Of a stretch of 43,601 bases of DNA, positions 4,224 to 37,908 are shown piece after piece. Both the position numbers and the translations under genes were made by a program. Source of the stretch: a virus. Taxonomy: Duplodnaviria > Heunggongvirae > Uroviricota > Caudoviricetes. The number at the start of each line of letters is the position of its first letter. Position 1 is the stretch's first letter. The stretch lies in IMG/VR virus record IMGVR_UViG_3300045988_013455, positions 1 to 43,601 of that record; one strand, 5' to 3'. The notes beneath the pieces are model-generated. The model did no database searches, was not told where the DNA came from, and saw nothing but the letters and a program-made list of their open reading frames with translations.

Positions 4224-4247
4224 AAGGCCCCAAACGGGGCCTTTTCT
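4224..4247. terminator. Bidirectional rho-independent terminator between convergent tailspike and replication operons
   Basis: GC hairpin AGGCCCC-aaac-GGGGCCT followed by TTTT; A-rich on the other side. Confidence 0.7.
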
Positions 4248-4451
4248 CTACTCTTCAGATAACTTCTCCAGTACAAACGCCAGTTGCGCGTTAGCGGCGT
4301 CTCTTTGTTGCCGCAGGCGTAGAACCTCCTCCTCAAGTTCCTTGATACGTTTTATTTCTCGCTTTAACTGCATGGCAAGAAGTTGCTCTCGGGCATTAAG
4401 AGCGTCTTTTATCAATTCGTCGCAAGCGTCGATATCGAACTCATTATTCAT
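4248..4451 (-). CDS. Hypothetical coiled-coil protein (67 aa)
   Basis: Last gene of the leftward operon; start overlaps the helicase stop (ATGA). Confidence 0.4.
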   Translation of the reverse strand: MNNEFDIDACDELIKDALNAREQLLAMQLKREIKRIKELEEEVLRLRQQRDAANAQLAFVLEKLSEE

Positions 4452-5872
4452 TTCTTACCTCGTCTCTTCATGTAATTAAGCAACTCTTCCTGTACAGATT
4501 TCTTCTCGTCAGTGCGCGCGGCAACAACCTCGTCCAGCGTGTCTTTAGCAACGATGTGATACAGGAACACCGGGCGCTCGTGGCCTGCTTGCTTCTGGCG
4601 CACCGGGCCTATACGCTCAACGACCTGCAAATAGTGCTCAAGGTTCCAGCCTTGCGAGATGAACGCCAGATGATGCCCGCCGTCCTGTAAATTCAAACCA
4701 TGACCGGCTGACGCAGGGTGGACGCATAAGATTTCGATTTCACCGCGGTTCCACGCTTCCATCTGCTTATTACCCTTCGCACCTTTAGAAAATGCCTGAG
4801 CCTGCGGGAATCGCTTAAGGATGCGCTCAAGTTCGTGCTTGAACTGATAGGCCACAAGCAACGGCGCACCCTGTAACTCCTCAACGATGGACTCAAGCGC
4901 ATCCAGTTTAGTGTCGTGCACTTTCTCCCAGTCTTTGGTTGCTTCTCCGTCTGGTCCTGATACATATACGGCGCCAGATGCAATCTGTAGACACTTCGAC
5001 GTCTTCGCCGCCGCGTTAGCCGCTTCAACTTCTCCGCTCTCCAGTTCCGCGAATAACTTCTCCTCCATATCGATGTACGCCTGGCGCGCTTTCTTCGGCA
5101 GGTCGATTTCAACAGGGACAATAATCGGCGCTTCACATCCGAACCACTCGGCGGCGTCAATCGTGAGACTAATGTCTTTCATCTTCTGGTGGATTTCATT
5201 ATCCGCACCCGGGCGCGCATGATACTCCCGCGCCATAGCCGACTTACCTTTCTGTACCGAGTTAAACCAGCGGTCGGTGAATGCCGTGTACGAAGAACCG
5301 AGGCGCTCGCCCGCGTCGATAAACCAGTTCTGCCCCCACAAGTCCTTGAGACCGTTTGGCGACGGTGTACCCGTCAGATTAATGAAACGCTTAACTTTAC
5401 CGAATGCCACCTTACTGAGCGCCTTAGCCCGCTTGCTCCCGCCAGAACGGCTGCGGAAGGATTTAAGCTTCGTGCTCTCGTCGGCAACAATAACCGTGAA
5501 AGGCCAGTCGTCTTTGCCGTAGTAGTCAATCAGCCACTCGATAACTTCGTAGTTGGTGCACACCACGTTAGCGTCAGACTCCAGCGCCGCGATGCGGCGC
5601 TTCTCTGAACCAGTAGCATCGACGACACTCAGACAAGGGAAGCTCCACTTAGTTTGTTCTGCAGGCCATGTGCCGGACGCAACACGTAACGGGGCAAGTA
5701 TTAACACGCGGTCGTCATCATTAAGTTGGCCGTTTCGGAACAGTCGGTTTAACACCCACATTGTCGACGAGGTCTTGCCGCCGCCCATACCGCACCAGAT
5801 ATTGCAACGTGGGTGCTGTAGCATAAACGACGTCATTATTTTCTGATATTCCCTGCGCCTAAACTTACTCAT
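4448..5872 (-). CDS. SF2 DNA helicase, SNF2-like
   Basis: Motifs GMGGGKT (Walker A), VIVADES (DExx-type), LTGTPSPNGLKDLWGQ (SNF2 motif III) and a C-terminal helicase domain. Confidence 0.8.
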   Translation of the reverse strand: MSKFRRREYQKIMTSFMLQHPRCNIWCGMGGGKTSSTMWVLNRLFRNGQLNDDDRVLILAPLRVASGTWPAEQTKWSFPCLSVVDATGSEKRRIAALESDANVVCTNYEVIEWLIDYYGKDDWPFTVIVADESTKLKSFRSRSGGSKRAKALSKVAFGKVKRFINLTGTPSPNGLKDLWGQNWFIDAGERLGSSYTAFTDRWFNSVQKGKSAMAREYHARPGADNEIHQKMKDISLTIDAAEWFGCEAPIIVPVEIDLPKKARQAYIDMEEKLFAELESGEVEAANAAAKTSKCLQIASGAVYVSGPDGEATKDWEKVHDTKLDALESIVEELQGAPLLVAYQFKHELERILKRFPQAQAFSKGAKGNKQMEAWNRGEIEILCVHPASAGHGLNLQDGGHHLAFISQGWNLEHYLQVVERIGPVRQKQAGHERPVFLYHIVAKDTLDEVVAARTDEKKSVQEELLNYMKRRGKK

Positions 5873-6366
5873 GCCTTGAACTCCCAGAAGTATATTTCCG
5901 CGGCTCTTTGGTATACGCGCGACGCTTCTTCTATAGTGTCAAAATAGCCAAGGTGGATGTATTTGTTATTGACGCCTATTCTGGCGCGCCACCTGCCAGA
6001 GGGTATTTGGTAAACCCCTATCGCGCCGCTAGTGTTATGTGATGAGCAGTCTCGGTTCTGAATCTGCTGGCTCCTGGTTGCTGGCCTTATATTATTTATG
6101 GCGTTATTAGCCCTGTTACGGTCTTTATGGTCAAGCTCACCATTATGATATTCTCCGTAGACGAAAGCCCATGCCAGATGGTGGGCTTTTATTCTTACAC
6201 CAGATACGGTGATAACTATGTATCCTTTGTCGTTTGGACCCCCGGCTACCTCCCCCGCATTCCTACCTTTTATGCTTACTTTCCGTGTAAATACGCCTGT
6301 TTCGGGGTCATAGTTAAGAAGACGTTTCGCCTCCTCAATATCAGGCCTTCTAGTTAATTTGTTCAT
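5869..6366 (-). CDS. HNH homing endonuclease with C-terminal AP2 DNA-binding domain
   Basis: HHLAWAFVYGEY...ELDHKDRNRANNAINNIRPA (HNH) plus GVYQIPSGRWRARI...LGYFDTIEEASRVYQRAA (AP2-like). Confidence 0.7.
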   Translation of the reverse strand: MNKLTRRPDIEEAKRLLNYDPETGVFTRKVSIKGRNAGEVAGGPNDKGYIVITVSGVRIKAHHLAWAFVYGEYHNGELDHKDRNRANNAINNIRPATRSQQIQNRDCSSHNTSGAIGVYQIPSGRWRARIGVNNKYIHLGYFDTIEEASRVYQRAAEIYFWEFKA

Positions 6367-6554
6367 TTCAACACCAGCACCAATTCTTTGCGCCCGAACG
6401 CCGTAACGTTACCAGTTACATCTTCGATAACCAGTTTACCGTTTGACTCGACGAACACCGTATCAACGGCAACAGGACGACGGGTCTTAACGTTGAAAAT
6501 CATGTCGCCAGGTACGATGTCACGTGCTGGTTTGCGGTCATATTCGTGTTTCAT
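6363..6554 (-). CDS. Hypothetical protein (63 aa)
   Basis: ORF in operon context with overlapping stop/start. Confidence 0.4.
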   Translation of the reverse strand: MKHEYDRKPARDIVPGDMIFNVKTRRPVAVDTVFVESNGKLVIEDVTGNVTAFGRKELVLVLK

Positions 6555-6565
6555 TTCTCAATTCC

Positions 6566-6868
6566 TTATATTGTTGGTGTATGACTACTATAATAGTCCG
6601 CTATTAGGTCGTCAACCTGTTTAAACGAACCAACGACAAAAACATTAGCACCACGTTTTCGGAATCTTTCATGTTCGCGTAGCTGGTGCGGGTCTGGCTT
6701 CGTGTTTTCGTCTTTCTTAACCTCGACGAACCATATTATGCCGTGGGGGAGAACCACTAACAGGTCCATTGCCGCGCGTCTGTTTTCATAAGACAGTTTA
6801 CGAACGAGGCCACCAATGGCCTCGAATCGGTCTTTTGCGTATTTCTGTATTTTGCCTTCCGGGGTCAT
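6566..6868 (-). CDS. VRR-NUC domain nuclease (PD-(D/E)XK fold)
   Basis: MDLLVVLPHGIIWFVEVKK ... HQLREHERFRKRGANVFVV resembles the VRR-NUC D...E-x-K core. Confidence 0.55.
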   Translation of the reverse strand: MTPEGKIQKYAKDRFEAIGGLVRKLSYENRRAAMDLLVVLPHGIIWFVEVKKDENTKPDPHQLREHERFRKRGANVFVVGSFKQVDDLIADYYSSHTPTI

Positions 6869-7011
6869 GACCGCAGCATCCAGGTAAGGAACGCCCCGCC
6901 TAGAAGGGCAACACCGACAAAATTAAAGAACAGACCATAACAGAACATCGCAGCTATTCCCGCGCCGAATAACAGTGCGAGCATGGTTACTATCGTCCAA
7001 AATACAAACAT
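6865..7011 (-). CDS. Small hydrophobic membrane protein (about 48 aa; not in ORF track, coordinates approximate)
   Basis: My own translation: MFVFWTIVTMLALLFGAGIAAMFCYGLFFNFVGVALLGGAFLTWMLRS; ATGA overlap with VRR-NUC start. Confidence 0.3.
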   Translation of the reverse strand: MFVFWTIVTMLALLFGAGIAAMFCYGLFFNFVGVALLGGAFLTWMLRS

Positions 7012-7099
7012 TGTCACAATACGCACCCCTCCCGTTTCGTATGCTCAATTCCACAGCGAGGACAGATTCGGCGGTCTTCTTCATAAAACCAGTAAATTT

Positions 7100-7231
7100 T
7101 CATTCCAGCACCCACAGATAAATTGCTACTAACATGCCAAATACCGCGGCCATCATGCCGTATTGACCCTCGTGACAGTAGACACCGGCGGCAAATCCCG
7201 CCAGTACCGCGATAATCAGTTTACTTAGCAT
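7100..7231 (-). CDS. Small hydrophobic membrane protein (about 43 aa; not in ORF track, coordinates approximate)
   Basis: My own translation: MLSKLIIAVLAGFAAGVYCHEGQYGMMAAVFGMLVAIYLWVLE; start overlaps the polymerase 3' end. Confidence 0.3.
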   Translation of the reverse strand: MLSKLIIAVLAGFAAGVYCHEGQYGMMAAVFGMLVAIYLWVLE

Positions 7232-9434
7232 AACGCTTCATCTCCGCACCTTCCGCTACAAGAGGGAACCCCTCCGCCCATTCCGGCAATTCGCACATCA
7301 ACCGCTCAAGCTCTGCTACATTGTATTCCGGTAAATCTGGTGTCTCGCAGATAATCTCATCGTGAACATGAAGTACAATCGGGTAGCCGTTTGCTTCGAC
7401 GTTCAGCAGCGCGTTGGCCAGCAAATCACGGCACAACGCCTGAGTGCAGTTTTCCACCAGTTTACCAGAGTAGGTGTACTGGAGGCCCCACTGACGGGTT
7501 AACTGGTTTTCGCCCTGGTACTTGATGCGCACGTTAGTAGACACCTTTCCGTCTTCGTCGGTCTCTTTCGACACGCTCAATCCGACGCCTGGGTAAGACA
7601 TAACTCGACCAGACGGCAACGTCATCCGCAACCACCAACCGGCGACTTTGTTGCCGTTGTTATCTGTCTCTACGTTACGCGAAAACTTAACGCCTCGCGG
7701 CCCTGCGGTGAACTCTTTGCCTGGGTTGCGGATAGCTGCCATAGCCGCGTCTTCAATATCTCGCCAGAAAGCTACTGTTTCAGGGTGAGACTCCCGCCAC
7801 ATGCGCTTGATTGCATCACAGGTACGCCACACTTTTTTATCAAGAATATATGATGGTCGGTCATCCTTTTCACCCGGCCGCGGGGGTCGCTTGGCTTCCT
7901 GAATACGCGCCCACTCATATCCACGTGCGGTAGAAGCCCATATGTGGTCGGGGAATGTCCCGTCCATTGTTTTAGCCATATCAACAAGGTCGAGGCCGAG
8001 GTTCTTAGCAAACTGAACGAAAGCACCAACACCTCCTGCGTAGCCGAGGCCCAGTTCGCAGGCTTTACCAATCTGGCGTAAGTCTTTACGTTCCTTCTTA
8101 ATGTAATCCGGCTCCATGCCGAACATCTTACCTGCGGTTACGCAGTAAATATCCAGTCCAGCGCGGAACGTATCGAGCGCGGTTTCTTCACCAGCCAGCC
8201 ACGCAAGCCCCCGGCCTTCAACGTTCGAGTAATCGGCAACGACAAACTTATGCCCTGCTTCCGGTATGATGCAGCTACGAACCGTCGATGCCGTTAGCTT
8301 GGCTACATCGAAACGGCGGTGCGCGCGGCCCTTAAGTAACGCTGAAATACCTTTATCCAGTTCACCATCATGGTAGTACCCGCGCGCCAGGTTCTGTGGC
8401 TGGAACCCTTTACCCGCAAATCGCAATGTACGCTTGGCTCCACCGTACTGGATGCAACCGCGACGGCGGTCGTCCGACGAGCGTCCTAACAGCAGCGGGT
8501 TATATTTCGTTGACGCGGTAGACGCTGCCCCGAGTCGCATTTCGATAATCGTGCGTGCGTCGCCCGGTAAATCATCGTCTGCCAATAGGTCATTCAGCGT
8601 CGATTTCTGTGCGTTGTGGATACGGTGCGCAGGGGCCAGTTCACGCAGAATTGGAAGAAAGTCCTTTCCAGTAAGCGAGCCGCCGTATTTGCGCTGTGCT
8701 TCTTCCTGTAACTGTGCCTTGTGCTTCTCTACGGCTTCAATCGCGGCTTCCGCCAGCGCGACATCAACCTTAAACCCGCGGTCATTGATTAACTGGTCCA
8801 GCTCCAGTACACGGTCTTCGAACTCGGAGTTACCCCAACGCGGCAGCTTATGGAAGACTTCACGCATAGCAGTAATGTCGCTCACAGCGTACTTGATGAA
8901 CAGCGCCCACTCGTCAGGGTGAGTTTCTGCGGTGTAGCGGCGGATTTTGTAGTTCTTCGGCGTCGGTTTAGAGAAACGCTGAATCAGCGCCTTGCCGCGT
9001 TTATCTTTCGCGTTGTCAGCGGATACACCCAGCACTTCGCACAACGCATCGAGCGACCCTGGCAGCGCGTGACGGAACGCCCAAATCATCGTATCAATGG
9101 TGTTGTTTACCGGAATATCAAAGCCCCAGCAGTGCTTCATGATGAGGCGGTCGAACATTGAGCCATTGTGCCACACCATCTTAATGCGGCTGTTCGGCTT
9201 AACCAGACGACGCAGTGCGCGGTGTAAATCCCCCGGCATGTCGCTGCCGTCAGTGCAATCCCATACCTGTACAGGCTCGTCGTCAAAAGCATAGGTACAG
9301 ATAAGCACTTCGGTAGTTGGGTGTTCGGCGTAAGCGTAGGAACCGACTTTCTTTAAATCGATGCCGCTGTAGGTTTCAAAGTCTAGATAGAGTAATTCTG
9401 GCATGGTATTTTGACCCTTAATAAAAAGGCCCAA
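7221..9434 (-). CDS. DNA polymerase, family A, with N-terminal 3'-5' exonuclease domain
   Basis: LYLDFETYSG (Exo I), ADYSNVEGRGLAWLAGE (motif A-like), RQIGKACELGLGYAGG (motif B-like), VLHVHDEIICE (motif C). Confidence 0.9.
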   Translation of the reverse strand: MGLFIKGQNTMPELLYLDFETYSGIDLKKVGSYAYAEHPTTEVLICTYAFDDEPVQVWDCTDGSDMPGDLHRALRRLVKPNSRIKMVWHNGSMFDRLIMKHCWGFDIPVNNTIDTMIWAFRHALPGSLDALCEVLGVSADNAKDKRGKALIQRFSKPTPKNYKIRRYTAETHPDEWALFIKYAVSDITAMREVFHKLPRWGNSEFEDRVLELDQLINDRGFKVDVALAEAAIEAVEKHKAQLQEEAQRKYGGSLTGKDFLPILRELAPAHRIHNAQKSTLNDLLADDDLPGDARTIIEMRLGAASTASTKYNPLLLGRSSDDRRRGCIQYGGAKRTLRFAGKGFQPQNLARGYYHDGELDKGISALLKGRAHRRFDVAKLTASTVRSCIIPEAGHKFVVADYSNVEGRGLAWLAGEETALDTFRAGLDIYCVTAGKMFGMEPDYIKKERKDLRQIGKACELGLGYAGGVGAFVQFAKNLGLDLVDMAKTMDGTFPDHIWASTARGYEWARIQEAKRPPRPGEKDDRPSYILDKKVWRTCDAIKRMWRESHPETVAFWRDIEDAAMAAIRNPGKEFTAGPRGVKFSRNVETDNNGNKVAGWWLRMTLPSGRVMSYPGVGLSVSKETDEDGKVSTNVRIKYQGENQLTRQWGLQYTYSGKLVENCTQALCRDLLANALLNVEANGYPIVLHVHDEIICETPDLPEYNVAELERLMCELPEWAEGFPLVAEGAEMKRYAK

Positions 9435-9445
9435 TGAAGGGCCTT
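9421..9445 (-). terminator. Intra-operon rho-independent terminator/attenuator between SSB and DNA polymerase genes
   Basis: Minus strand reads AAGGCCC-ttcatt-GGGCCTT followed by TTTTTAT. Confidence 0.5.
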
Positions 9446-9464
9446 AGTTAAATTGATTCAGATA

Positions 9465-10091
9465 TTAACGGCGGCGACGTTCGCGGCGCGGTGCTTCGTC
9501 TTCTTCGTCATCTTCCAGGTCGTCGACGCTTGCGGCGACTTTAGAACCGCCGAATGCTTTACCTTCGCCGACGTATTTAATCGCCAGCAGGTTAACGCCG
9601 AGTACTTTGTATTTCTGGCTGAACCAGATTTCAACGCTTACGTTAGCGACACAGCCGCTGTAAACCTGTTCGCCTTCAATCTGTTCCCCGTCTACGTTGA
9701 AGTCCTGTTCTACCTGAGTCTCACCCTTTTTAGAGGTTACAATCAGTGGCTGTTTCTGTGCCTTCGCTTTGAAGTAGAAGCCTTCCGGGAAGTCTTCAAA
9801 CGGATTGTCGCGCTCGGCGATGTCTTTAATCGCGCATTTATCCATGTGCTTACCTTCACCGTAGTTGGACTTCATCCACTTCTCGGCAGCGGCTGCACCT
9901 AACGCCTCTTCAACTACAGCGTAAACAGTGTCGTAGAGCGCATCGATTTGAGCATGGTCAGACGGCAGGATAATAGTCGCGCTGTACTGACCTTTAGTGA
10001 TTGAGCCATCATCGTTTTCACGGTCTTTTTCGCGTTCGAATACGTTAACCCAGGCAGTGTTTACTTTACGCAGATTTAATTTCAGTCCCAT
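9465..10091 (-). CDS. Single-stranded DNA-binding protein, T7 gp2.5 / DUF2815-like
   Basis: N-terminal KLNLRKVNTAWVNVFE, internal YSGCVANVS, acidic tail DDLEDDEEDE; recalled family resemblance, not searched. Confidence 0.55.
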   Translation of the reverse strand: MGLKLNLRKVNTAWVNVFEREKDRENDDGSITKGQYSATIILPSDHAQIDALYDTVYAVVEEALGAAAAEKWMKSNYGEGKHMDKCAIKDIAERDNPFEDFPEGFYFKAKAQKQPLIVTSKKGETQVEQDFNVDGEQIEGEQVYSGCVANVSVEIWFSQKYKVLGVNLLAIKYVGEGKAFGGSKVAASVDDLEDDEEDEAPRRERRRR

Positions 10092-10143
10092 TTGATTTCT
10101 CGCTTTTCAGTTTACTCCGGGAACTGCCCGGCCAGTGATTAGA

Positions 10144-10172
10144 ACTATAATAGCTAACTATTCAGGTGTCAA
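10144..10172 (-). promoter_or_regulatory. Sigma70-like promoter (TTGACA-17-TATAGT) upstream of SSB gene
   Basis: Minus strand reads TTGACAcctgaatagttagctatTATAGT; shares the AACTATTC motif with other promoters. Confidence 0.5.
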
Positions 10173-10405
10173 CCCTTCCAGCCAGTTATTTTCTCAACTA
10201 TAGTCAGATATACGTTAGGCCACTTCAAATTACGCACCCACTCAACTTCTTTGGCGTACACCAAATCCTCTAGCTCTATTTTCCTGCACTTGAACGCGGT
10301 ATACGCGAAAAACGGAAGAAGCATTATGACAAGCGGCAATATTAGCGCGTGATAAGTTAAAAACGCCACAAAACCGCCAATTACTCTGAACATTTTACGA
10401 ATCAT
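10169..10405 (-). CDS. Small membrane protein (start set at RBS-supported ATG; track ORF extends to 10468)
   Basis: GAGGAGGA RBS then ATG (MIRKMFRVIGGFVAFLTYHALILPLVIMLLPFF); hydrophobic segment. Confidence 0.5.
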   Translation of the reverse strand: MIRKMFRVIGGFVAFLTYHALILPLVIMLLPFFAYTAFKCRKIELEDLVYAKEVEWVRNLKWPNVYLTIVEKITGWKG

Positions 10406-11697
10406 TCTAAATCCTCCTCTGTTACCTGATTCCACTCGGGTCGTTTGTCGCCCGCCGTTGCAACACATGGTGCGCCCGGCTTACGGGTAATAAAGTCTTT
10501 CAGTTCATCTTCCGACACAACTTTAACCGCTTCGGTCGGCGTCATGAGCACTACCTTTTGCAGCATAGTACCGTACTTCGCGAATACCGCATCGGCATCT
10601 TTCCACGAACGATTACCAGGACGACCTTCAACCAGCTTGTACCCCGGCACTTTCTTACCGGAATGCAACGCGGTGGCCATAGCCTTTTCAACCTTGTCGA
10701 TGTGCTGGCGCAACAACGGCAACTTCTCATATTCAGCTACGAGTTGCTCTGGTGTCAGTTCCAGTGCCAAGTCGTCCTCCAGTTCTTCCTCCAGTACAGA
10801 ATTAACCGTCTTTGTACGCGCTGCGCACTGTTCAGAGAACCGACACCACTGGCATCCATCTACCGATGGCTTGAAGTCCGACGCTTTCAGGTTCTTCTTA
10901 CCGCGGAAATACGCATCAAGCGCCAACAGTGCACGTTTCTGTGCGAACTTAGCGAACAGTTCCAGACCTTCAACCGAGATGTCCCACTCTGACGCACCCC
11001 CAGCGTACGGCTGGAAGATGACCAGACGAACCATGGTGATGTTATAACGTCTCTTGAGTCGGCGATAAACACCAAGAGCGTAAAGCATAAGCTGCTTGTT
11101 TTCTTTCGCTTCGACACGATGCCGTCCTGTTTTAAGGTCGCCGATGATGAGCATCGCGGAGTTACTTTCACCTGTAAAGCCTTCTATAACCGCCACTAAG
11201 TCGGCTGTCCCGAATGTCTCTAAATCATCCTCCTTACCTTCTTCACTCTCAGCAGGTACTTTGTATCCCGGATGCAATACCTCAGTAAGATTGACGCGCA
11301 TTTCTAACTTTGCATAAGTCGCTACATCGATAATCGCTTTGCAGTAGTCGGTGTACTTGCGCACCTGCTCAATCATGTCCGCCGTAATCAGTACAGCACC
11401 TTTCATTTGGCGTATTAGCGCCTTAATCTGGCCTTTGCCCTCATCCAGCACGTAAGCACCGACTTCGCGCTCTAACGGCAACGCAGTGCCGCGTATATAG
11501 GCGTTGAGATGGACCTCAGCTATAGTGTGGCATGCTGTTCCTGTAACGGCGGATTTACCCGACGTGTTAGGAATGTCTTTTTCACACGCCAGTGACGCAG
11601 CACATGACAGCCACTTTTTAGCGCCCGACGGTGACAATAATGCGTGCACATCGTTATTACCGCCGCGTTCCTTTAAAATCATACCCTGCTCTCCCAC
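10402..11697 (-). CDS. PD-(D/E)XK exonuclease, RecB/Cas4-like with Fe-S cysteine cluster
   Basis: GTADLVAV...IGDLKTG...QLMLYAL nuclease core; N-terminal Cys plus C-terminal CQWCRFSEQC (CxxCx5C). Confidence 0.7.
   Translation of the reverse strand: MGEQGMILKERGGNNDVHALLSPSGAKKWLSCAASLACEKDIPNTSGKSAVTGTACHTIAEVHLNAYIRGTALPLEREVGAYVLDEGKGQIKALIRQMKGAVLITADMIEQVRKYTDYCKAIIDVATYAKLEMRVNLTEVLHPGYKVPAESEEGKEDDLETFGTADLVAVIEGFTGESNSAMLIIGDLKTGRHRVEAKENKQLMLYALGVYRRLKRRYNITMVRLVIFQPYAGGASEWDISVEGLELFAKFAQKRALLALDAYFRGKKNLKASDFKPSVDGCQWCRFSEQCAARTKTVNSVLEEELEDDLALELTPEQLVAEYEKLPLLRQHIDKVEKAMATALHSGKKVPGYKLVEGRPGNRSWKDADAVFAKYGTMLQKVVLMTPTEAVKVVSEDELKDFITRKPGAPCVATAGDKRPEWNQVTEEDLE
10403..10423. repeat. 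21-nt junction module tcattctaaatcctcctctgt (copy 1), identical to 13454..13474
   Basis: On the minus strand encodes TEEDLE-stop of the upstream gene plus GAGGAGGA RBS and ATG of the downstream gene. Confidence 0.85.
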
Positions 11698-11951
11698 TGG
11701 TCAATTAAATGCCGAGTCTTATGTTCGCAGTGCATAGCCCACCCATACATCGACTCGAAGACATAAAAGTCAGGTTTGGCGAAAGTCGTGCGCTTAATCT
11801 GCGACACGTGGCGGCCTATATCTTTAGGCCGTGGCACTTTTCCTAAGTACGCCATCTCTTCCATCAGGTGCGCACCGGACGGCGCACGTAACAGCCATAG
11901 CGCCTCTGTGTTATCCCGCCTGTCTACGGCGCGGTAGAGTTGGTAAATCAT
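11679..11951 (-). CDS. Hypothetical protein (90 aa)
   Basis: ORF in operon; overlaps neighbours by a few nt. Confidence 0.4.
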   Translation of the reverse strand: MIYQLYRAVDRRDNTEALWLLRAPSGAHLMEEMAYLGKVPRPKDIGRHVSQIKRTTFAKPDFYVFESMYGWAMHCEHKTRHLIDQWESRV

Positions 11952-12235
11952 TGCGCCTTCTCCCGCATTTTCAGAAATACAATCATAGCAGCGCGTAGAG
12001 GGTTCTCGTGCGTACTTTTAGTGAACGATGCAGAGTGGTACGCACGATATGTAAACGTATGCCGGTTAACCGTAACGCATTCAATTGATATGTGATTATC
12101 AATTATTATGGACCATGCATCAGATGGGTTGTTGCAGTAGTCTTTGGCCTTAAACGAATTCAATCCTGAAATTTGCATAATCTCTGCGTGCACACGGCAG
12201 TTAATCTCAAAATCGCCCATTTCTTCATATTTCAT
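11948..12235 (-). CDS. Hypothetical protein (95 aa)
   Basis: ORF in operon; preceded by RBS-like GAGGG. Confidence 0.4.
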   Translation of the reverse strand: MKYEEMGDFEINCRVHAEIMQISGLNSFKAKDYCNNPSDAWSIIIDNHISIECVTVNRHTFTYRAYHSASFTKSTHENPLRAAMIVFLKMREKAQ

Positions 12236-12278
12236 AATTACGACCCTCAGTTAAAGCGGCCCGAAGGCCGCAGGATAT

Positions 12279-12788
12279 TTATTCTTCTTCAAAATACTTG
12301 TTCTTGATTGCCGTCAGTCGCTCCAGATATTCGACCAGGTCTTCGTCCTTAATCGCAGCAATCTTCATCTTCTCGCCAGTGAACTCTTCCAGCAGTTCAT
12401 CAGAATCATCACACGCGGCATCGCTAGGGCCTTCGTTAATCGCATCATCGATAGCCTGAATCTGGTCACGAAGAGACTGGTAATCGACCTCTTCTTCCGG
12501 CTCTGGCGTTGGTTCCTCTACTTTAGCTTTCCGCGGCTTGCGTTTTGGTTTCTCTTCTTCTGCCGGTTTAGTGTCAACAAGGTCTTCACCTTCGACTGGG
12601 ATTTCTTTTGTTTCTTCTTTTACAACAGTAGGCGTGATTGTTGCAGTTTCTGCGACACCACTGTCGACGTCTTTACCATATGGCGCCGTGATAGCCTTCG
12701 GCAGTTCAGTACGGCGTGCACTGTTCGCAGCAATCAGTTCATGTGCAACTACGAAACGTTCCAGTAATTTTAAGAATTGGTCTAACAT
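12279..12788 (-). CDS. Acidic hypothetical protein (169 aa)
   Basis: RBS GAGGAGAGA upstream of ATG; highly acidic Glu/Asp-rich sequence. Confidence 0.5.
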   Translation of the reverse strand: MLDQFLKLLERFVVAHELIAANSARRTELPKAITAPYGKDVDSGVAETATITPTVVKEETKEIPVEGEDLVDTKPAEEEKPKRKPRKAKVEEPTPEPEEEVDYQSLRDQIQAIDDAINEGPSDAACDDSDELLEEFTGEKMKIAAIKDEDLVEYLERLTAIKNKYFEEE

Positions 12789-12819
12789 TTGTTTCTCTCC
12801 TCTCGTTTGGTATGGGCTA

Positions 12820-12849
12820 ACTATAATAGCTAACTATTCATGTTGTCAA
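12820..12849 (-). promoter_or_regulatory. Sigma70-like promoter (TTGACA-18-TATAGT) for the 12788 gene
   Basis: Minus strand TTGACAacatgaatagttagctatTATAGT; leader contains AAACGAGAGGAG. Confidence 0.5.
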
Positions 12850-12913
12850 TGGGCTTTCCTAAAATAATTAATATGGTACTATTCACATATAAACTGACTA
12901 AGGAGTAACTGAC

Positions 12914-13129
12914 ATGCAACCATCTGAACTAGGCATCCGTGTAGAACAACGCCGCAAAGAACTCGGCCTCTCTCAGCGCCGTCTGGCGGTCCTGGCTGGC
13001 GTTTCCCAGGGCGCAATTAACCAGCTGGCACTTGGGGTAACTCAGGACGTCCGCCCGGCAACGCTGTTTAAACTGGCGGAAGTGCTGCAAGTAGACGCCA
13101 AGTGGCTGGCGTTCGGTGAAGGGGCTTAA
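12914..13129 (+). CDS. XRE-family (Cro/CI-type) helix-turn-helix transcriptional regulator
   Basis: RRKELGLSQRRLAVLAGVSQGAINQLALG is a typical HTH_3 signature; lone plus-strand gene with own terminator. Confidence 0.7.
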   Translation: MQPSELGIRVEQRRKELGLSQRRLAVLAGVSQGAINQLALGVTQDVRPATLFKLAEVLQVDAKWLAFGEGA

Positions 13130-13146
13130 CGCCCCTTTCTTTTTAT
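13119..13146 (+). terminator. Rho-independent terminator after XRE regulator gene
   Basis: GGGGC-ttaac-GCCCC followed by TTTCTTTTT. Confidence 0.7.
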
Positions 13147-13457
13147 CGCAAATTATCAAGTTCTTCCAAGTTCTTAATCATGCGCTGCACGTTCAGGTAT
13201 TGGAGTAAAGCCAAAGGATACACACTTACCGGGAAGCTGATTACAATCGCCAATCCAAAAACCAATGTATAGATAGCTTCGATAATCTCCCCCAGTGTCA
13301 TATCTAAAACGTCTTTAAACCTCCCAACACGCCCCGCCGCCCATCTACAAAAAGCCCACCAGTTGTTTGCTACACAAGAAACACATGTCAGGTAAGACGG
13401 GCGGTAGCCCGCGTACACCGCTTTACTTGGGTCATTGATGAAGTCGTAAATATTCAT
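13143..13457 (-). CDS. Hypothetical protein with C-terminal hydrophobic segment (104 aa)
   Basis: Same GAGGAGGA-N7-ATG junction module as at 10405; TLVFGLAIVISFPVSVYPLALL. Confidence 0.5.
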   Translation of the reverse strand: MNIYDFINDPSKAVYAGYRPSYLTCVSCVANNWWAFCRWAAGRVGRFKDVLDMTLGEIIEAIYTLVFGLAIVISFPVSVYPLALLQYLNVQRMIKNLEELDNLR

Positions 13458-13474
13458 TCTAAATCCTCCTCTGT
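13454..13474. repeat. 21-nt junction module (copy 2), identical to 10403..10423
   Basis: Exact 21/21 identity; encodes TEEDLE-stop of the primase-helicase and RBS+ATG of the next gene. Confidence 0.85.
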
Positions 13475-15724
13475 CACTGTCAGCATTTCATTCGGTTCGT
13501 ATAATGTCTTCGGAATCTTGTTGTCGTTTATACCCCACGGCAACCGGTATTGCTTAGGTATAGGTCTGTTGTTGTTATCCAGACCCGAGACGATAACCCT
13601 GGCCTCGTGCATCTCTTCCAGTTTCTTTCGAAGGTCGTTATTAGCGTTAATCGGTACGCCGTAACTATCTTCTTTCGCCGCTTTGACGATAGCGGACATG
13701 GAGAACCCTCGCTTGTCGTCGCCCTGCTCCTGCAATTTACCCAATGCGTAAATAACCGTAGCCTCTTTGGGATCCAGTTTCTCGAACTGGCCTACCTTTT
13801 CTTTAACGGCCGCTTTACCTTCTTTCGTCAACCCTTCTTCCCGCTCTTTCTCCTCGTCAGTCTTGAACGGCTCGAAGCCCCACGGCATCAGTACAAGCGC
13901 CTTGTGTGGTTCTGGCAGGTCCAGGTTTACGATTGTGCCGTATTCCTCTGTGTTACCCAGGAACTCAACCGCACGGTACTCTTTCGGCGGCGGGGCTTCA
14001 CGGAACTGTACAGATTCCAGCACCATACCAACCGTCTTCTGTTGAGGCCCGTGCTTAAATTTAGAGTGGTATACATTTATCTGACGGTCGGTTGCGCGTT
14101 CAATTGTCAGTTCCACATCGACGCCTGCGTACAGAGCGCCACTACCACGGGCTTTCTTTCCGCCCTTCGGCGTATGGTGAACGACGCCCACCGCGGCTTT
14201 GGTTGCGTCGCGTACTTCTTTCAGGATGGCGATAACTTTACCCATGCCAATTGCCGTCGATGAACTGTTCTCGTCGAACTTATCAATCGTCAGGGCCAGC
14301 GTCTGGTTAAGGGTGTCGAACGCAACCATGCCAATAGGCTCGTCGCCCGCAGTTTCGCGCATTAACTTAATCAGGCTTTTCAGTTTGCCGACTTCGCCCA
14401 TATCGATGACATGTACATAATCTTTACCCTCTGCACCGTATTTAGCCGCGAGCGCGTCAATACGTGTACGTGTGGCTGCGCCACCCTCACCGTCGATATA
14501 GAAATGGTGGCAACGCTGGGTGTCCGCCCCTGCAAACCGGTATCCGGCGGCGCTAAGGTACATCATCCCAAGCGTATAAAACGATTTGTACGTGCCAGAT
14601 TCACCGACGATATCCCAGATACAATCCGACGGCATGTACCCTTCTACGACGAAATCAGCCTTTACCGGTTCCGGTAACTCGTCCTCCTCTGAATCCTCGC
14701 CGTCTTCCAGGTCGTCGAGACTGCATGAGACAGATTCCCGCACGCCCCACCCGATAGCCTCAGCGACTTCACTGAACGGCAGCCCGGTTGCATTGCACGC
14801 GTACTTCCACACCTCTTTCGGCGACATGCCTTCGGTTGCCATAATGTCGGTGTCGTGAATCATGGTTACGTTAGGCGCTTCGTAGCCCTCACGCGGGAAG
14901 CACAGCAGGAAGTCGTCCGACCGTGGTGTCGGGTCGCTGTAGTTCTCTGCATGTTCCGGTGTAGCCGGCATTTTAAGCCCGCGGGGTGTCATGATACCGC
15001 CGTACTCAAACGCCAGTGCCTCGAACGCATCAGTAAACGCTGTGCGCAGTTCTTCCGGTATCTGGTAATCCGACGCGCTGCTCACCTCGTAATCCGGGAT
15101 GCCCTCCAGTAACTCGTCCGGGTCAATCAGGTCGTTGCGGCGAGACCAGATAACGGTAGAGCCAACCGGCGGCAGGTACATAGGCTGGGACAGGGTAAAA
15201 CCGCTGCGGTCCGCGCCCATGCCTTTGAAGAAATGCTCCAGCAATCCATGACGAACTCGGATGATGTCACCACCTTCAACCGGGCGACCCAGCGGCATAA
15301 CGACGCGAAAGCGCGGGGACTCGTCGGTATGTGATGCCGTGGTATAGAGGCACATGGCCTGACGGCTGCGCTTAACCCGGCGCACCGCTTCCTGATACTC
15401 TTCCGGTGTTGCACTGTCGAAATCCAGATACGCCAGCGACGATTTGCTTACAGACGCGTCACAACGATAGAAAAATCCTTTACGCGCTTGCTTAAAGTCA
15501 CCGGTTTCCGGGTCTTTTACGGTGCTGTGCGTTGAGTCGCACGCGGCGGTAATATAGCCGGGCGCTGTCTTAGGGTTAATTCCGTCGCGAACGGCATCGA
15601 GCGGCTGAATTAACTCTTTCAGGTCGTCCAGTGTTGCCGTGTGTGTGGTTCTGACGTTTATATCCTTTTTCTCCGCCCGCGCGTTGCGACGAGACCACGA
15701 GTAGGATAAAATTACATCGGACAT
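13454..15724 (-). CDS. Bifunctional primase-polymerase (PrimPol-like N-terminus) fused to RecA-fold helicase/ATPase
   Basis: N-terminal LAYLDFD, TTASHTD, RFRVVMPL; central GESGTYKS (Walker A), MVAFDTL (Walker B), VVHHTPKGG. Confidence 0.7.
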   Translation of the reverse strand: MSDVILSYSWSRRNARAEKKDINVRTTHTATLDDLKELIQPLDAVRDGINPKTAPGYITAACDSTHSTVKDPETGDFKQARKGFFYRCDASVSKSSLAYLDFDSATPEEYQEAVRRVKRSRQAMCLYTTASHTDESPRFRVVMPLGRPVEGGDIIRVRHGLLEHFFKGMGADRSGFTLSQPMYLPPVGSTVIWSRRNDLIDPDELLEGIPDYEVSSASDYQIPEELRTAFTDAFEALAFEYGGIMTPRGLKMPATPEHAENYSDPTPRSDDFLLCFPREGYEAPNVTMIHDTDIMATEGMSPKEVWKYACNATGLPFSEVAEAIGWGVRESVSCSLDDLEDGEDSEEDELPEPVKADFVVEGYMPSDCIWDIVGESGTYKSFYTLGMMYLSAAGYRFAGADTQRCHHFYIDGEGGAATRTRIDALAAKYGAEGKDYVHVIDMGEVGKLKSLIKLMRETAGDEPIGMVAFDTLNQTLALTIDKFDENSSSTAIGMGKVIAILKEVRDATKAAVGVVHHTPKGGKKARGSGALYAGVDVELTIERATDRQINVYHSKFKHGPQQKTVGMVLESVQFREAPPPKEYRAVEFLGNTEEYGTIVNLDLPEPHKALVLMPWGFEPFKTDEEKEREEGLTKEGKAAVKEKVGQFEKLDPKEATVIYALGKLQEQGDDKRGFSMSAIVKAAKEDSYGVPINANNDLRKKLEEMHEARVIVSGLDNNNRPIPKQYRLPWGINDNKIPKTLYEPNEMLTVTEEDLE

Positions 15725-15782
15725 GTTGTATTTCCTTCAGCAAGTAATTTGGCCTCGGCGTTCACCGCGTCGGGGCTTTCTT

Positions 15783-16016
15783 TTATTCCAGGTCTTCTAA
15801 AGTGGCTGTCATTCCGCGAACTTCAGCAATGGCACTATATTTCCCACCAACATTTTTCACGACATCAGATTTAACCAGCACCTTCAACGACCCCTCAATA
15901 ATGGCGGAACTATAGTACTTAAAATAACTACGGCGCAAGTCCATAACGCTGCACGACCCTTTTTTACGTGTCAACGAAACTACCGCCGTAAATACACGCG
16001 ACTGGAACTCGGTCAT
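15783..16016 (-). CDS. Hypothetical protein (77 aa), ends LEDLE
   Basis: ORF in early leftward operon; ATGA overlap with upstream small HTH gene. Confidence 0.45.
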   Translation of the reverse strand: MTEFQSRVFTAVVSLTRKKGSCSVMDLRRSYFKYYSSAIIEGSLKVLVKSDVVKNVGGKYSAIAEVRGMTATLEDLE

Positions 16017-16183
16017 TTCACGTTCTCCTTAATCCACGCTTCCACTTTCTCCGGGTCAAACGTACCTGGCTGCCGGCGCCCCATAATGCGGATGCAACAA
16101 TCCGGGAACTTCCCACTCTTTAACCAGTTATTCAGCGTGCGACGAGTAACCCCGATGCGCTCAGCTACCTCATTCTGTGTCAT
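16013..16183 (-). CDS. AlpA-like small HTH DNA-binding protein (about 56 aa; not in ORF track)
   Basis: My own translation: MTQNEVAERIGVTRRTLNNWLKSGKFPDCC...; first gene after leftward early promoter. Confidence 0.5.
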   Translation of the reverse strand: MTQNEVAERIGVTRRTLNNWLKSGKFPDCCIRIMGRRQPGTFDPEKVEAWIKENVK

Positions 16184-16215
16184 TCTCAAACCCTCATTAT
16201 CAGTTAACGAAACCG

Positions 16216-16244
16216 AGTATACATTGCGAATAATGGGAAATCAA
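16216..16244 (-). promoter_or_regulatory. Leftward early promoter (TTGATT-17-TATACT)
   Basis: Minus strand TTGATTtcccattattcgcaatgTATACT about 35 nt upstream of the AlpA-like start. Confidence 0.5.
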
Positions 16245-16623: not shown

Positions 16624-16652
16624 TTGCACACCCCAACATAATAGGTTACTAT
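16624..16652 (+). promoter_or_regulatory. Rightward early promoter (TTGCAC-17-TACTAT) with conserved leader
   Basis: TTGCACaccccaacataataggtTACTATtcac then AAACGAGACAGAGGAG before the ATG at 16678. Confidence 0.55.
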
Positions 16653-16677
16653 TCACTTATCGAAACGAGACAGAGGA

Positions 16678-16884
16678 GTGATGGTTATGTTTAAGAAAGG
16701 TCAGTTGGCGAAAACGAAACGCACCGGACAATATGTATTAGTGTTGCAGGACGAGAACGAGTATGACGAGGATAATCTGGTTGACGTATGGGGCCTGGTA
16801 AGAAAGAAACCCGGGTTCGCCTACCGGGATAATTTAACACTAATAGGCAACAATTTTAAATTAAAAGGGGTGAGATATGAGTAA
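16678..16884 (+). CDS. Hypothetical early protein (68 aa)
   Basis: RBS GAGGAG upstream; first gene after the rightward early promoter. Confidence 0.45.
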   Translation: MMVMFKKGQLAKTKRTGQYVLVLQDENEYDEDNLVDVWGLVRKKPGFAYRDNLTLIGNNFKLKGVRYE

Positions 16885-17902: not shown

Positions 17903-17931
17903 TTGCACGCTGGGATAGAGTAGACTACTAT
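17903..17931 (+). promoter_or_regulatory. Sigma70-like promoter (TTGCAC-17-TACTAT) with conserved leader
   Basis: TTGCACgctgggatagagtagacTACTATtcat then AAACGAGAGGGGAGA before the ATG. Confidence 0.55.
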
Positions 17932-17962
17932 TCATTTACACAAACGAGAGGGGAGACAGAAG

Positions 17963-26180: not shown

Positions 26181-26210
26181 AGAAAAAGGCCCCTTACGGG
26201 GCCTTAACTT
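26181..26210. terminator. Bidirectional rho-independent terminator
   Basis: AAGGCCCC-ttac-GGGGCCTT flanked by A-run and T-rich sequence. Confidence 0.7.
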
Positions 26211-26998: not shown

Positions 26999-27027
26999 AA
27001 TAGTACCCTATTATATTGGTGTCTGCA
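26999..27027 (-). promoter_or_regulatory. Sigma70-like promoter (TTGCAG-17-TACTAT) driving antisense cassette A
   Basis: Minus strand TTGCAGacaccaatataatagggTACTATtcac then conserved leader. Confidence 0.55.
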
Positions 27028-27072
27028 AATATTATTTTTATGCGTTACACTGTCAATACTACAGGAGGGCCT

Positions 27073-28853: not shown

Positions 28854-28882
28854 ATAGTACCCTATTATATTGGTGCCTGCAA
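28854..28882 (-). promoter_or_regulatory. Sigma70-like promoter (TTGCAG-17-TACTAT) driving antisense cassette B
   Basis: Minus strand TTGCAGgcaccaatataatagggTACTATtcat then AAACGAGAGATAAGGAA. Confidence 0.55.
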
Positions 28883-37879: not shown

Positions 37880-37908
37880 ATAGTACCCTATTATATTGGG
37901 GCGCGCAA
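37880..37908 (-). promoter_or_regulatory. Sigma70-like promoter (TTGCGC-17-TACTAT) driving antisense cassette C
   Basis: Minus strand TTGCGCgccccaatataatagggTACTATtcac, same module as at 26999 and 28854. Confidence 0.5.

What the first reader, a model, noticed from the sequence alone, without database searches (positions are those of the whole stretch)
12820..13146. Lone XRE-family regulator transcribed against the replication operon in an apparently virulent genome
A 71-aa Cro/CI-type HTH gene is the only rightward gene inside the 12-kb leftward early operon, with its own terminator and promoter-region motif copies on both sides (12820..12849 and 12869..12880). No integrase or other lysogeny functions were found, so it more likely controls early/middle transcription than lysogeny.
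Basis: partly seen in the sequence, partly recalled or inferred. Interest (0 to 1): 0.4.

Follow-up and report, generated by a model that had tools for sequence, protein, structure and literature searches.

The report
Cro-like regulator gene in a virulent phage
This is a real, strongly conserved small DNA-binding gene resembling phage 434 Cro that sits back-to-back with a strong early promoter in a strictly lytic E. coli phage; it most likely turns phage promoters down rather than setting up dormancy, and it is already annotated, but never tested, in hundreds of related phage genomes.

Summary
Window 12914..13129 (+) encodes a 71-aa HTH_3/XRE protein whose closest solved relative is phage 434 Cro. 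It is the only credible rightward gene in the leftward block 4248..16189. It has its own intrinsic terminator, and no integrase or prophage copy was found.

Two corrections. Site 12820..12849 is a leftward sigma-70 promoter (TTGACA-18-TATAGT) for the divergent acidic gene 12279..12788. The 12-kb block is several transcription units, not one operon.

The window is a Kagunavirus. The gene is a core gene of Guernseyvirinae, under strong purifying selection (pN/pS 0.06), and always lies divergent from the same neighbour. In more distant relatives it heads the rightward helicase-primase operon, the position cro holds in lambdoid phages.

There are 7 exact copies against 0.05 expected, all inside promoters. 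Across relatives the arms are invariant and the centre varies.

Best reading: a Cro-type brake on phage promoters that lacks a CI partner. Which protein binds the palindrome is not shown. The only Kagunavirus RNA-seq study places the orthologue among middle genes, not early ones. This is an ordinary member of a known kind, with a useful regulatory lead.

The parts
12914..13129 (+). XRE / 434-Cro-like HTH gene, 71 aa, stop codon included
   Evidence: Translation. Pfam HTH_3 E=6.6e-13. 434 Cro is the best PDB sequence hit, E=3.6e-7, over the full length. AF2 model has pLDDT 84 and five helices; best Foldseek hit is 2cro, TM 0.73/0.78. pN/pS 0.058 among 34 distinct Kagunavirus alleles.
12900..12905 (+). 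Shine-Dalgarno AAGGAG, 8 nt upstream of the ATG
   Evidence: Sequence. Conserved in Kagunavirus, Jersey, St162 and phiEap-2 upstream regions.
12854..12882 (+). Putative own promoter P_R: weak -35 CTTTCC, 17-nt spacer, extended -10 TGG-TACTAT (12874..12882)
   Evidence: Sequence. It has the same TACTAT-TCA -10 and start region as five other phage promoters. Nearly invariant in 35 distinct Kagunavirus sequences. Below the threshold of the consensus scan, so inferred.
12870..12883 (.). Degenerate palindrome AATATGGTACTATT (one mismatch) overlapping the -10 of P_R; candidate autoregulatory operator
   Evidence: conserved as such in relatives.
12820..12849 (-). Leftward sigma-70 promoter P_L, TTGACA-18-TATAGT, for 12279..12788 and the genes downstream of it
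   Evidence: 11 of 12 consensus matches. An orthologous promoter is present in Jersey, St162, phiEap-2 and IMG/VR lineages.
12825..12838 (.). Exact 14-bp palindrome AATAGCTAACTATT in the spacer of P_L; candidate operator
   Evidence: 7 exact copies in the window against 0.05 expected. It is the top 5+5 palindrome in an unbiased enumeration. Arms are invariant and the centre variable in 35 relatives.
13118..13146 (+). Intrinsic terminator of the XRE transcript; the stop codon TAA lies in the loop
   Evidence: The opposite strand forms the hairpin but has no U-tract. Leftward read-through antisense to the XRE gene is therefore expected (inferred).
12279..12788 (-). Divergent partner gene p169: acidic, low-complexity protein, phrog_3127, function unknown
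   Evidence: Always divergent from the XRE gene in every lineage examined.
13143..15724 (-). Convergent unit: helicase-primase (13454..15724) plus a 104-aa ORF (13143..13457), ending 13 nt from the XRE stop codon
   Evidence: AAA_25 domain; phrog_2638; no - strand terminator between 13143 and 12789.
10144..10172 (-). Second leftward promoter of the same class (TTGACA-17-TATAGT) with palindrome AATAGCTAACTATT, upstream of the SSB (DUF2815) gene
   Evidence: Arms conserved and centre variable (CTAA, CCAA, CTCG, TTTG, CTTA, CTTG, TTAA) across relatives. Orthologous in four lineages.
6587..6615 (-). Third leftward promoter of the same class (TTGACG-17-TATAGT) with the palindrome
16624..16652 (+). 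Class-A promoter TTGCAC-17-TACTAT with palindrome AATAGGTTACTATT overlapping the -10
17903..17931 (+). Class-A promoter with a one-mismatch palindrome
27000..27028 (-). Class-A promoter with an exact palindrome
28854..28882 (-). Class-A promoter with an exact palindrome
37880..37908 (-). Class-A promoter with an exact palindrome
16013..16189 (-). Second small DNA-binding gene (HTH_17, excisionase-like, 58 aa), first gene of the helicase-primase unit; rival candidate for binding the palindrome
   Evidence: Pfam HTH_17. 88% identical in Jersey, absent from St162 and phiEap-2. Its orthologue is the early HTH gene in K1B4 RNA-seq.

Best explanation
The ORF is a functional, single-domain, 434-Cro-like helix-turn-helix protein and a core gene of the Guernseyvirinae (Kagunavirus, Jerseyvirus and relatives). 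It is transcribed rightward from its own weak promoter with an extended -10 (12854..12882) to its own terminator (13118..13146). It lies back-to-back with the strong leftward promoter P_L (12849..12820). Proposed mechanism (inferred): as the protein accumulates it binds, as a dimer, 14-bp AATAG-N4-CTATT palindromes that overlap core promoter elements. One exact copy lies in the P_L spacer. One weaker copy lies over its own -10. The same element lies in at least six other phage promoters. Binding would turn those promoters down, which is the 'turn-off' role of Cro, here without a CI partner and without lysogeny. Leftward read-through from the helicase-primase unit runs antisense across the gene and may limit its expression in turn. 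Shown: the gene, its fold family, its conservation, the promoter and terminator anatomy, the enrichment of the palindrome and its arms-conserved, centre-variable pattern, and the absence of lysogeny genes and prophage copies. Inferred: DNA binding, which sites are bound, the sign of regulation and its timing.
For: Fold and family: HTH_3 at 48.9 bits; 434 Cro is the best sequence hit and the best structural hit, with the same length of 71 aa. Selection: pN/pS 0.058. The 72 nt upstream of the ATG diverge 5-fold more slowly (0.042) than the gene's synonymous sites (0.22). Core gene: 579 phage records carry a homologue. About 117 are 90% or more identical (Kagunavirus) and about 356 are Salmonella phages, consistent with the gene being present in nearly all of the 440 related genomes. 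Layout: P_L scores 11 of 12 and its -35 lies 4 bp from the -35 of the XRE promoter. Palindrome: 7 exact copies against 0.05 expected, and 12 within one mismatch against 1.12. It is the top palindrome in both the window and phage Jersey in an unbiased count. Every copy lies in a promoter-like site. At P_L and at the SSB promoter the arms are invariant while the central 2-4 nt and the 3 nt next to the -35 vary across about 35 relatives. At 14 bp it is the same size as the 434 operator (own knowledge). Position: in St162, phiEap-2 and 10 IMG/VR lineages the XRE gene is the first gene of the rightward helicase-primase arm, divergent from the leftward recombination and replication arm, as cro is in lambdoid phages. 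Not lysogeny.
Against: There are no binding data. The palindrome core is the same in Kagunavirus and Jerseyvirus although their XRE recognition helices differ (SQGAINQ against SQSLITH, 51% identity). The HTH_17 protein is 88% identical between those two genera. It is missing from St162, which lacks the palindrome, and from phiEap-2, which has only a relaxed form. That correlation fits HTH_17 at least as well as XRE. In class-A promoters the right arm coincides with the -10 hexamer TACTAT, so part of the symmetry may belong to the promoter itself. The class-A copies are near-duplicate cassettes, so the 7 copies are not independent. The one Kagunavirus time-course (vB_Eco_K1B4) lists the XRE orthologue (gene _004) among middle genes, not among the four early genes. 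Whether that library was strand-specific is not stated. A repressor site in nearly every promoter, including those leading into late genes, is an odd design for a lytic phage.
Confidence: 0.55

Rival explanations
1. The XRE protein is only a local regulator. It autoregulates and sets the level of the divergent P_L unit through some other site in the conserved 12850..12895 stretch. The genome-wide AATAG-N4-CTATT palindrome is read by another factor: the early HTH_17 protein (16013..16189), a host protein, or RNA polymerase itself.
For: HTH_17 is 88% identical between Kagunavirus and Jerseyvirus, which share the palindrome. It is absent from St162 and phiEap-2, where the palindrome is absent or relaxed. 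The HTH_17 orthologue is one of four early genes in K1B4. The whole 12850..12895 region is nearly invariant, not just the palindrome. The right arm overlaps the -10 in class-A promoters.
Against: A 58-aa HTH_17 protein has no obvious dimerisation module for a symmetric site (own knowledge of Xis and MerR N-terminal domains). The P_L 14-mer keeps its register and most of its arms in lineages that lack HTH_17: AATAC-TAAA-CTATT in phiEap-2 and a perfect AATAC-GTCG-GTATT in L054. No copy of the palindrome lies at the promoter of the HTH_17 unit itself.
Confidence: 0.25
2. The gene is a leftover immunity or superinfection function. It would be a Cro/CI-type repressor kept from a temperate ancestor that now blocks secondary infection by related phages, or supports a carrier or pseudolysogenic state.
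For: Many depositors call it 'repressor'. The closest homologues outside the subfamily are repressors or Cro proteins of temperate phages (Stx-converting, Mannheimia, Klebsiella). Sites in many promoters would suit silencing of an incoming genome.
Against: At 71 aa it has no C-terminal oligomerisation or S24 domain. No integrase or partition genes were found. No prophage copies exist in 5,426 E. coli genomes or among the GTDB species representatives. Published isolates are described as lytic.
Confidence: 0.1
3. The gene is an XRE-type antitoxin or a regulator of host genes, for example a DicA or HipB mimic.
For: The HTH domain resembles DicA (NCBIfam 47 bits), HipB and CapH at low scores.
Against: All these scores are far below the family cut-offs (DicA 47 against 101). 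There is no co-transcribed partner, because the gene is monocistronic with its own terminator. Its invariant neighbour is divergent, not co-operonic.
Confidence: 0.05

Closest known systems
Phage 434 Cro (PDB 2cro, 3cro, 1zug)
   Same: Same length (71 aa) and the same five-helix HTH fold. It is the best sequence hit (E=3.6e-7, residues 6-68 against 4-64) and the best structural hit (TM 0.73/0.78, 40% identity). The Gln at position 2 of the recognition helix is conserved. The candidate operator is a 14-bp palindrome, the size of a 434 operator (own knowledge).
   Different: There is no divergent cI gene and no three-part O_R; only two copies lie 45 bp apart. The recognition helix differs (SQGAINQ against KQQSIQL). 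The candidate half-site is AATAG rather than ACAA. In this window the gene is monocistronic with its own terminator instead of leading the replication operon.
Lambda/434/P22 Cro 'turn-off' of early promoters P_L and P_R during lytic growth (own knowledge)
   Same: A small repressor made from one of two back-to-back early promoters. In distant relatives (St162, phiEap-2) it is the first gene of the rightward replication arm, opposite a leftward recombination arm.
   Different: There is no CI, CII or integrase and no bistable switch. Candidate sites are spread over at least eight promoters, not concentrated at one control region.
Conserved cro-like genes of virulent Streptococcus thermophilus phages (for example ORF31 of phage 2972; PMC13575424)
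   Same: A cro-like HTH gene kept in strictly lytic phages, placed directly downstream of a housekeeping-type promoter. [quoted passage not shown]
   Different: The phage lineage and host are unrelated. Those genes are early and co-directional with the early genes. Here the gene is antiparallel to its neighbours, and its orthologue is reported as a middle gene.
Restriction-modification controller (C) proteins such as C.AhdI and C.BclI
   Same: Similar size and fold (Foldseek hits 1y7y and 2b5a, TM about 0.7). These are autoregulatory timers that bind palindromes over their own promoter (own knowledge).
   Different: No R-M genes lie nearby. No C-box (GACT-N3-AGTC type) was seen by eye in the sequence read. 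Sequence similarity is lower than to 434 Cro.

Membership tests
XRE / Cro-CI helix-turn-helix (Pfam HTH_3, PF01381) | Match to the family HMM above the gathering score | tested here: met
   48.9 bits against a cut-off of 23, residues 11-65 on profile positions 2-55 of 55.
434 Cro-like single-domain regulators | Five-helix lambda-repressor-like fold with nothing beyond the HTH domain | tested here: met
   71 aa. The AF2 model has helices at 5-16, 21-28, 32-39, 48-57 and 62-66, pLDDT 84. Best PDB matches are 2cro, 1pra and 3cro.
Cro of a lambdoid CI/Cro switch | A divergently transcribed CI-type repressor gene across the operator region | tested here: not met
   The divergent gene is an acidic 169-aa protein with no HTH and no Pfam, NCBIfam or PDB match.
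Cro of a lambdoid CI/Cro switch | First gene of the rightward early operon, followed by replication genes | tested here: not met
   In the window the gene is monocistronic with its own terminator and the helicase-primase converges on it. The feature is met in St162, phiEap-2 and 10 IMG/VR lineages.
Cro of a lambdoid CI/Cro switch | Several related operators overlapping both divergent promoters | tested here: inconclusive
   One exact copy (12825..12838) and one one-mismatch copy (12870..12883) of AATAG-N4-CTATT overlap P_L and P_R. Binding is untested.
Cro of a lambdoid CI/Cro switch | Represses the early promoters in vivo | not testable with these tools
   Needs reporter assays or transcriptomics of a mutant.
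CI-type prophage maintenance repressor | C-terminal oligomerisation or S24 peptidase domain | tested here: not met
   71 aa, HTH only.
CI-type prophage maintenance repressor | Accompanied by an integrase or partition module and found as a prophage | tested here: not met
   No integrase domain. None annotated in relatives. No match in 5,426 E. coli genomes. Only a stray phage contig among 185,579 species genomes.
DicA (NCBIfam NF007257) | Score above the curated cut-off over the full 135-aa model | tested here: not met
   47 bits against a cut-off of 101, N-terminal half only. The 'DicA' label in GenBank MF153391 is therefore an over-annotation.
XRE-type antitoxin (HipB, HigA) | Co-transcribed toxin partner | tested here: not met
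   Monocistronic; the neighbours are on the other strand. Family scores are below cut-off.
R-M controller (C) protein | Adjacent restriction and methylase genes | tested here: not met
   The neighbours are p169, NinX, a nuclease and the helicase-primase.

The most novel reading that the evidence does not exclude
A single Cro-sized protein, with no CI partner, reads a 14-bp palindrome built into nearly every promoter of a virulent siphovirus: three strong leftward replication promoters, five class-A cassettes and its own promoter. It would then act as a genome-wide dosage-dependent brake or timer. Its own expression would be capped by antisense read-through from the helicase-primase unit. That would be a minimal one-protein temporal programme shared by Kagunavirus and Jerseyvirus.
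Probability: 0.25. Interest if true: 0.5.

Novelty: new member of a known kind. Interest (0 to 1): 0.27.

Why it matters
Kagunavirus and Jerseyvirus phages are widely proposed for therapy and food biocontrol. Genome reports either label this gene 'repressor', which raises a lysogeny flag, or state that no repressor is present. Showing that it is a CI-less, Cro-type core gene, with no integrase and no prophage copies, settles that safety question in favour of a lytic lifestyle. The candidate operator network gives a concrete and cheap way to work out how these small host-RNA-polymerase-dependent siphoviruses time their genes. It would also help in engineering their promoters. It does not open a new class of mechanism.

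Tried and rejected
1. I first read the K1B4 RNA-seq paper as showing the XRE gene to be early. The supplementary gene table shows that the early HTH gene _008 is the HTH_17 orthologue and that the XRE orthologue _004 is 'middle'. I withdrew that claim.

2. I looked for covariation between the XRE recognition helix and the promoter palindromes across Kagunavirus, Jersey, phiEap-2, St162 and IMG/VR lineages. The result is ambiguous. Kagunavirus and Jersey share the same core despite different helices. L054 has a different perfect palindrome. St162 has none.

3. Rfam (no hits) and a tRNA scan (none) gave nothing.

4. A rightward promoter using the perfect TATAAT at 12822..12827 was considered. 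No -35 or TGn accompanies it, so I left it as a minor possibility.

5. A bidirectional terminator at 13118..13138 was rejected, because the - strand has no U-tract.

6. An Ant (anti-repressor) partner as in Jersey gp22 is not present in the window.

7. Resemblances of the palindrome to host operators (TrpR, ArgR) were noticed from memory, but the key bases differ. I did not pursue them.

8. The antisense ORF 12929..13159 (-) and the other + ORFs inside the block overlap longer conserved genes, so I treated them as spurious.

9. The large protein-database searches were not used, because the family assignment was already clear.

Full report
**What the window is.** The 4-kb stretch around the finding is 87-91% identical to Escherichia phages of the genus Kagunavirus (Guernseyvirinae), such as ST20, fFiEco03 and fEg-Eco06. 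It matches 440 phage records, mostly Salmonella Jerseyvirus and E. coli Kagunavirus. The window is collinear with phage Jersey over its whole length.

**Checking the observation.**
- ORF 12914..13129 (+) encodes 71 aa, with an AAGGAG ribosome-binding site 8 nt upstream.
- It matches Pfam HTH_3 at 48.9 bits against a cut-off of 23.
- A clean intrinsic terminator follows: an 8-bp GC-rich stem at 13118..13138, then TTTCTTTTTAT, at -16.3 kcal/mol.
- From 4248 to 16189 every ORF with recognisable homologues is on the - strand. These are an SNF2 helicase, an HNH-AP2 endonuclease, DNA polymerase A, a DUF2815 SSB, a DUF2800 nuclease, NinX, the helicase-primase and a small HTH_17 protein.
- In the annotated relatives the XRE gene is likewise the only + gene in the block.
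- ACTATTC occurs at 12833 and 12878, and 12 times in the window against 4.75 expected.

Two details need correcting.
- 12849..12820 is a - strand sigma-70 promoter, TTGACA-18-TATAGT, with 11 of 12 consensus matches. It drives the divergent gene 12279..12788. It is not a motif copy flanking the XRE gene.
- The leftward block is not one operon. Further - strand promoters lie at 16244, 10172 and 6615, and - strand terminators at 9445 and 4243.

**Lifestyle.**
- None of the ORFs of 150 aa or more that I scanned carries an integrase or recombinase domain.
- None is annotated in Jersey, St162 or phiEap-2.
- The Jersey anti-repressor-like gp22 has no counterpart in the window.
- Megablast of 9400..16200 found nothing in 5,426 complete E. 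coli genomes.
- A pattern scan of one genome from each of 185,579 species returned only one close locus. That locus also carries the phage's HTH_17 and p77 genes, so it is a stray Jersey-like phage contig in a Bacteroidota assembly.
- Published isolates are described as lytic.

The statement 'apparently virulent' stands.

**What the protein is.**
- The best solved relative by sequence is phage 434 Cro, also 71 aa, at E=3.6e-7 and aligned end to end. The 434 and P22 repressor DNA-binding domains follow.
- A single-sequence AlphaFold model (pLDDT 84) has the five helices of that fold. Its best Foldseek hit is 2cro, TM 0.73/0.78 and 40% identity.
- NCBIfam's DicA model scores 47 bits against a cut-off of 101. 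The 'DicA' label in some GenBank records is therefore an over-annotation.
- There is no second domain.

**Conservation.**
- tblastn finds the protein in 579 phage records. About 117 are 90% or more identical (Kagunavirus). About 356 are Salmonella phages at roughly 51% identity (Jerseyvirus). Other Guernseyvirinae are at 35-49%.
- Among 34 distinct Kagunavirus alleles from IMG/VR, pN/pS is 0.058.
- The upstream intergenic region is even more constrained. Its pairwise divergence is 0.042, against 0.22 at the gene's synonymous sites.

This is a core gene under selection, not a decaying relic.

**Synteny.** In every lineage examined the XRE gene is divergent from the same neighbour, p169 (phrog_3127). 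This is a very acidic, low-complexity protein of unknown function that heads the leftward nuclease, SSB and polymerase arm. The right-hand side varies.
- In Kagunavirus and Jerseyvirus the helicase-primase unit, headed by the HTH_17 gene, is on the - strand and converges on the XRE gene.
- In St162, phiEap-2 and ten IMG/VR lineages a helicase-primase only 27-33% identical lies on the + strand directly downstream of the XRE gene. The rest of the genome then follows rightward.
- In those relatives the XRE gene is the first gene of the rightward arm at the genome's main divergent control region, which is the position cro holds in lambdoid phages.

The 'lone' state in the window is best explained by inversion or replacement of the helicase-primase module. 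That left the regulator stranded with its own terminator.

**The motif.**
- There are 7 exact copies against 0.05 expected, and 12 within one mismatch against 1.12.
- In an unbiased count of all 5+5 palindromes with 0-8 nt gaps, it ranks first in the window. It also ranks first in phage Jersey, where it extends to TAATAG-N4-CTATTA. Terminator stems take the next ranks.
- Every copy lies in a promoter-like site.

Two promoter classes carry it.
- Three leftward promoters (6615, 10172, 12849) read TTGAC(A/G)-N4/5-AATAGnnnnCTAT|TATAGT, with the palindrome in the spacer.
- Five class-A cassettes (16624+, 17903+, 27028-, 28882-, 37908-) read TTGCAn-N17-TACTAT. The palindrome overlaps the -10, and a conserved leader (tcgaaacgagag) follows.

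The XRE gene's own promoter is a class-A-type -10 (TGG-TACTAT, extended -10) with a poor -35 and a one-mismatch palindrome at 12870..12883.

Phylogenetic footprinting on 35 distinct Kagunavirus sequences adds to this. In P_L the arms are invariant. The central two to three bases, the three bases next to the -35, and 12815..12817 vary freely. The SSB promoter shows the same pattern, with centres CTAA, CCAA, CTCG, TTTG, CTTA, CTTG and TTAA. Conserved arms with a free centre inside a promoter spacer is the signature of a site for a symmetric DNA-binding dimer. A 14-bp site also matches the 434 operator in size (own knowledge).

**Mechanism proposed.** The XRE protein acts as a Cro-type negative regulator. 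It is made from a weak constitutive-type promoter and, as it accumulates, occupies the palindromes. It would occupy the exact sites in the strong replication promoters first and the degenerate site over its own -10 later, damping those promoters.

There is no - strand terminator between 13143 and 12789, and the hairpin at 13118..13138 lacks a U-tract on the - strand. Transcripts of the helicase-primase unit should therefore read antisense through the XRE gene into the P_L unit. That would add transcriptional interference or antisense control. All of this is inference.

**Evidence that cuts against it.**
- Kagunavirus and Jerseyvirus share the palindrome core, but their XRE recognition helices differ (SQGAINQ against SQSLITH).
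- The HTH_17 protein is 88% identical between the two genera. It is absent from St162, which has no palindrome enrichment, and from phiEap-2, which has only a relaxed AATA-N6-TATT. HTH_17 is therefore a serious rival binder.
- Against that rival, the P_L 14-mer keeps its register in lineages that lack HTH_17. It is even a different perfect palindrome in L054, AATAC-GTCG-GTATT.
- In class-A promoters the right arm is the -10 itself.
- The class-A copies are near-duplicate cassettes, so the copy count overstates independence.
- The only Kagunavirus transcriptome (vB_Eco_K1B4, PMC12645636) needs careful reading. Its gene table shows that the early 'helix-turn-helix' gene _008 is the HTH_17 orthologue. 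The XRE orthologue, _004 (216 nt, + strand, between the p169-like and helicase-primase genes), is listed with the middle genes. Whether the library was strand-specific is not stated. With antisense read-through expected, that assignment is weak either way.

**Comparison with known systems.** The protein is a member of the HTH_3/XRE family and of the 434-Cro-like single-domain fold group; both were tested and met.
- It is not a Cro of a CI/Cro switch in the strict sense, because there is no divergent CI and, in this window, no downstream replication operon.
- It is not a CI-type maintenance repressor, a DicA equivalog, an antitoxin or an R-M controller (see the membership table).
- Functionally the nearest analogy is the turn-off role of Cro during lytic growth.
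- The nearest ecological parallel is the cro-like gene kept by all virulent Streptococcus thermophilus phages, whose role is also unknown (PMC13575424).
- I found no functional study of the Guernseyvirinae gene. Genome papers either call it a repressor or state that no repressor exists.

**Verdict.** The finding is real and correctly typed. The gene is ordinary and already annotated in hundreds of public records. What this analysis adds:
- the Cro-position argument from distant relatives;
- the corrected promoter map;
- a statistically strong, evolutionarily constrained palindrome shared by most phage promoters, which is a testable operator candidate.

Interest is modest.

Noticed in passing
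window 16624-16680 (+), 17903-17960 (+), 26970-27028 (-), 28820-28882 (-), 37850-37908 (-): Five near-identical promoter-plus-leader cassettes: TTGCAn-N17-TACTAT-TCA, then tcgaaacgagag and a Shine-Dalgarno sequence. Each precedes a short gene block. The same cassette occurs in phage Jersey at 39893. They look like reused, possibly mobile, expression modules.
   Followed up: partly
window 28929-29200: A perfect 16-bp palindrome, AACTATTCGAATAGTT (28931-28946), with the half-sites in the opposite order to the promoter palindrome. It abuts a + strand TTGACT-17-TAAGCT promoter with TGn. About 220 nt of non-coding leader follow, ending in a terminator-like hairpin (29155-29180) just before the gene at 29201. 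No Rfam match. Possibly an attenuator or a small RNA.
   Followed up: partly
window 10092-10143 (- strand): The 5'UTR of the DUF2815 SSB gene contains a hairpin, CCGGGCAGUUCCCGG. It is conserved almost base for base in Kagunavirus, Jersey, St162 and phiEap-2, although the proteins are only about 50% identical. It is a candidate translational operator for SSB autoregulation.
   Followed up: no
window 12279-12788 (-): The first gene of the strongest promoter is a 169-aa, very acidic, Glu/Asp/Lys/Pro-rich protein (phrog_3127) with no Pfam, NCBIfam, PADLOC or PDB match. It is always paired divergently with the XRE gene. A DNA mimic or host-takeover role is conceivable.
   Followed up: partly
window 13143-16244 (-), compared with L004, L005, L054-L066: The helicase-primase module is convergent with the XRE gene and headed by an HTH_17 gene in Kagunavirus and Jerseyvirus. 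In St162-like and phiEap-2-like lineages it is co-directional with and downstream of the XRE gene, with only 27-33% protein identity. This looks like a module inversion or replacement at the control region.
   Followed up: yes
window 16013-16189 (-): A 58-aa HTH_17 (excisionase/MerR-like) protein that also matches the PADLOC model 'mad1' (E=7.5e-11). Its orthologue is the only annotated early gene in the K1B4 transcriptome.
   Followed up: partly
window 15751-15777 (+): A strong + strand terminator-like hairpin (11 pairs) lies inside the leftward block, between p77 and the helicase-primase gene. It could stop antisense transcripts, or serve as an mRNA-processing or stability element on the - strand.
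   Followed up: no
window 4224-4243, 9426-9445, ~26187-26206, ~36050-36069: The same terminator stem (AAGGCCC..GGGCCTT) is reused at four module boundaries.
   Followed up: no
L077 (NZ_JACVEL010000022.1, Taishania pollutisoli scaffold22): A 19-kb scaffold in a Bacteroidota genome assembly carries Jersey-like XRE, HTH_17 and p77 genes at the same identities as phage Jersey. It is most likely phage contamination of the assembly rather than a prophage.
   Followed up: partly
window 5869-6366 (-): An HNH plus AP2-domain homing endonuclease is inserted in the replication gene block. Relatives carry different HNH insertions at other positions.
   Followed up: no
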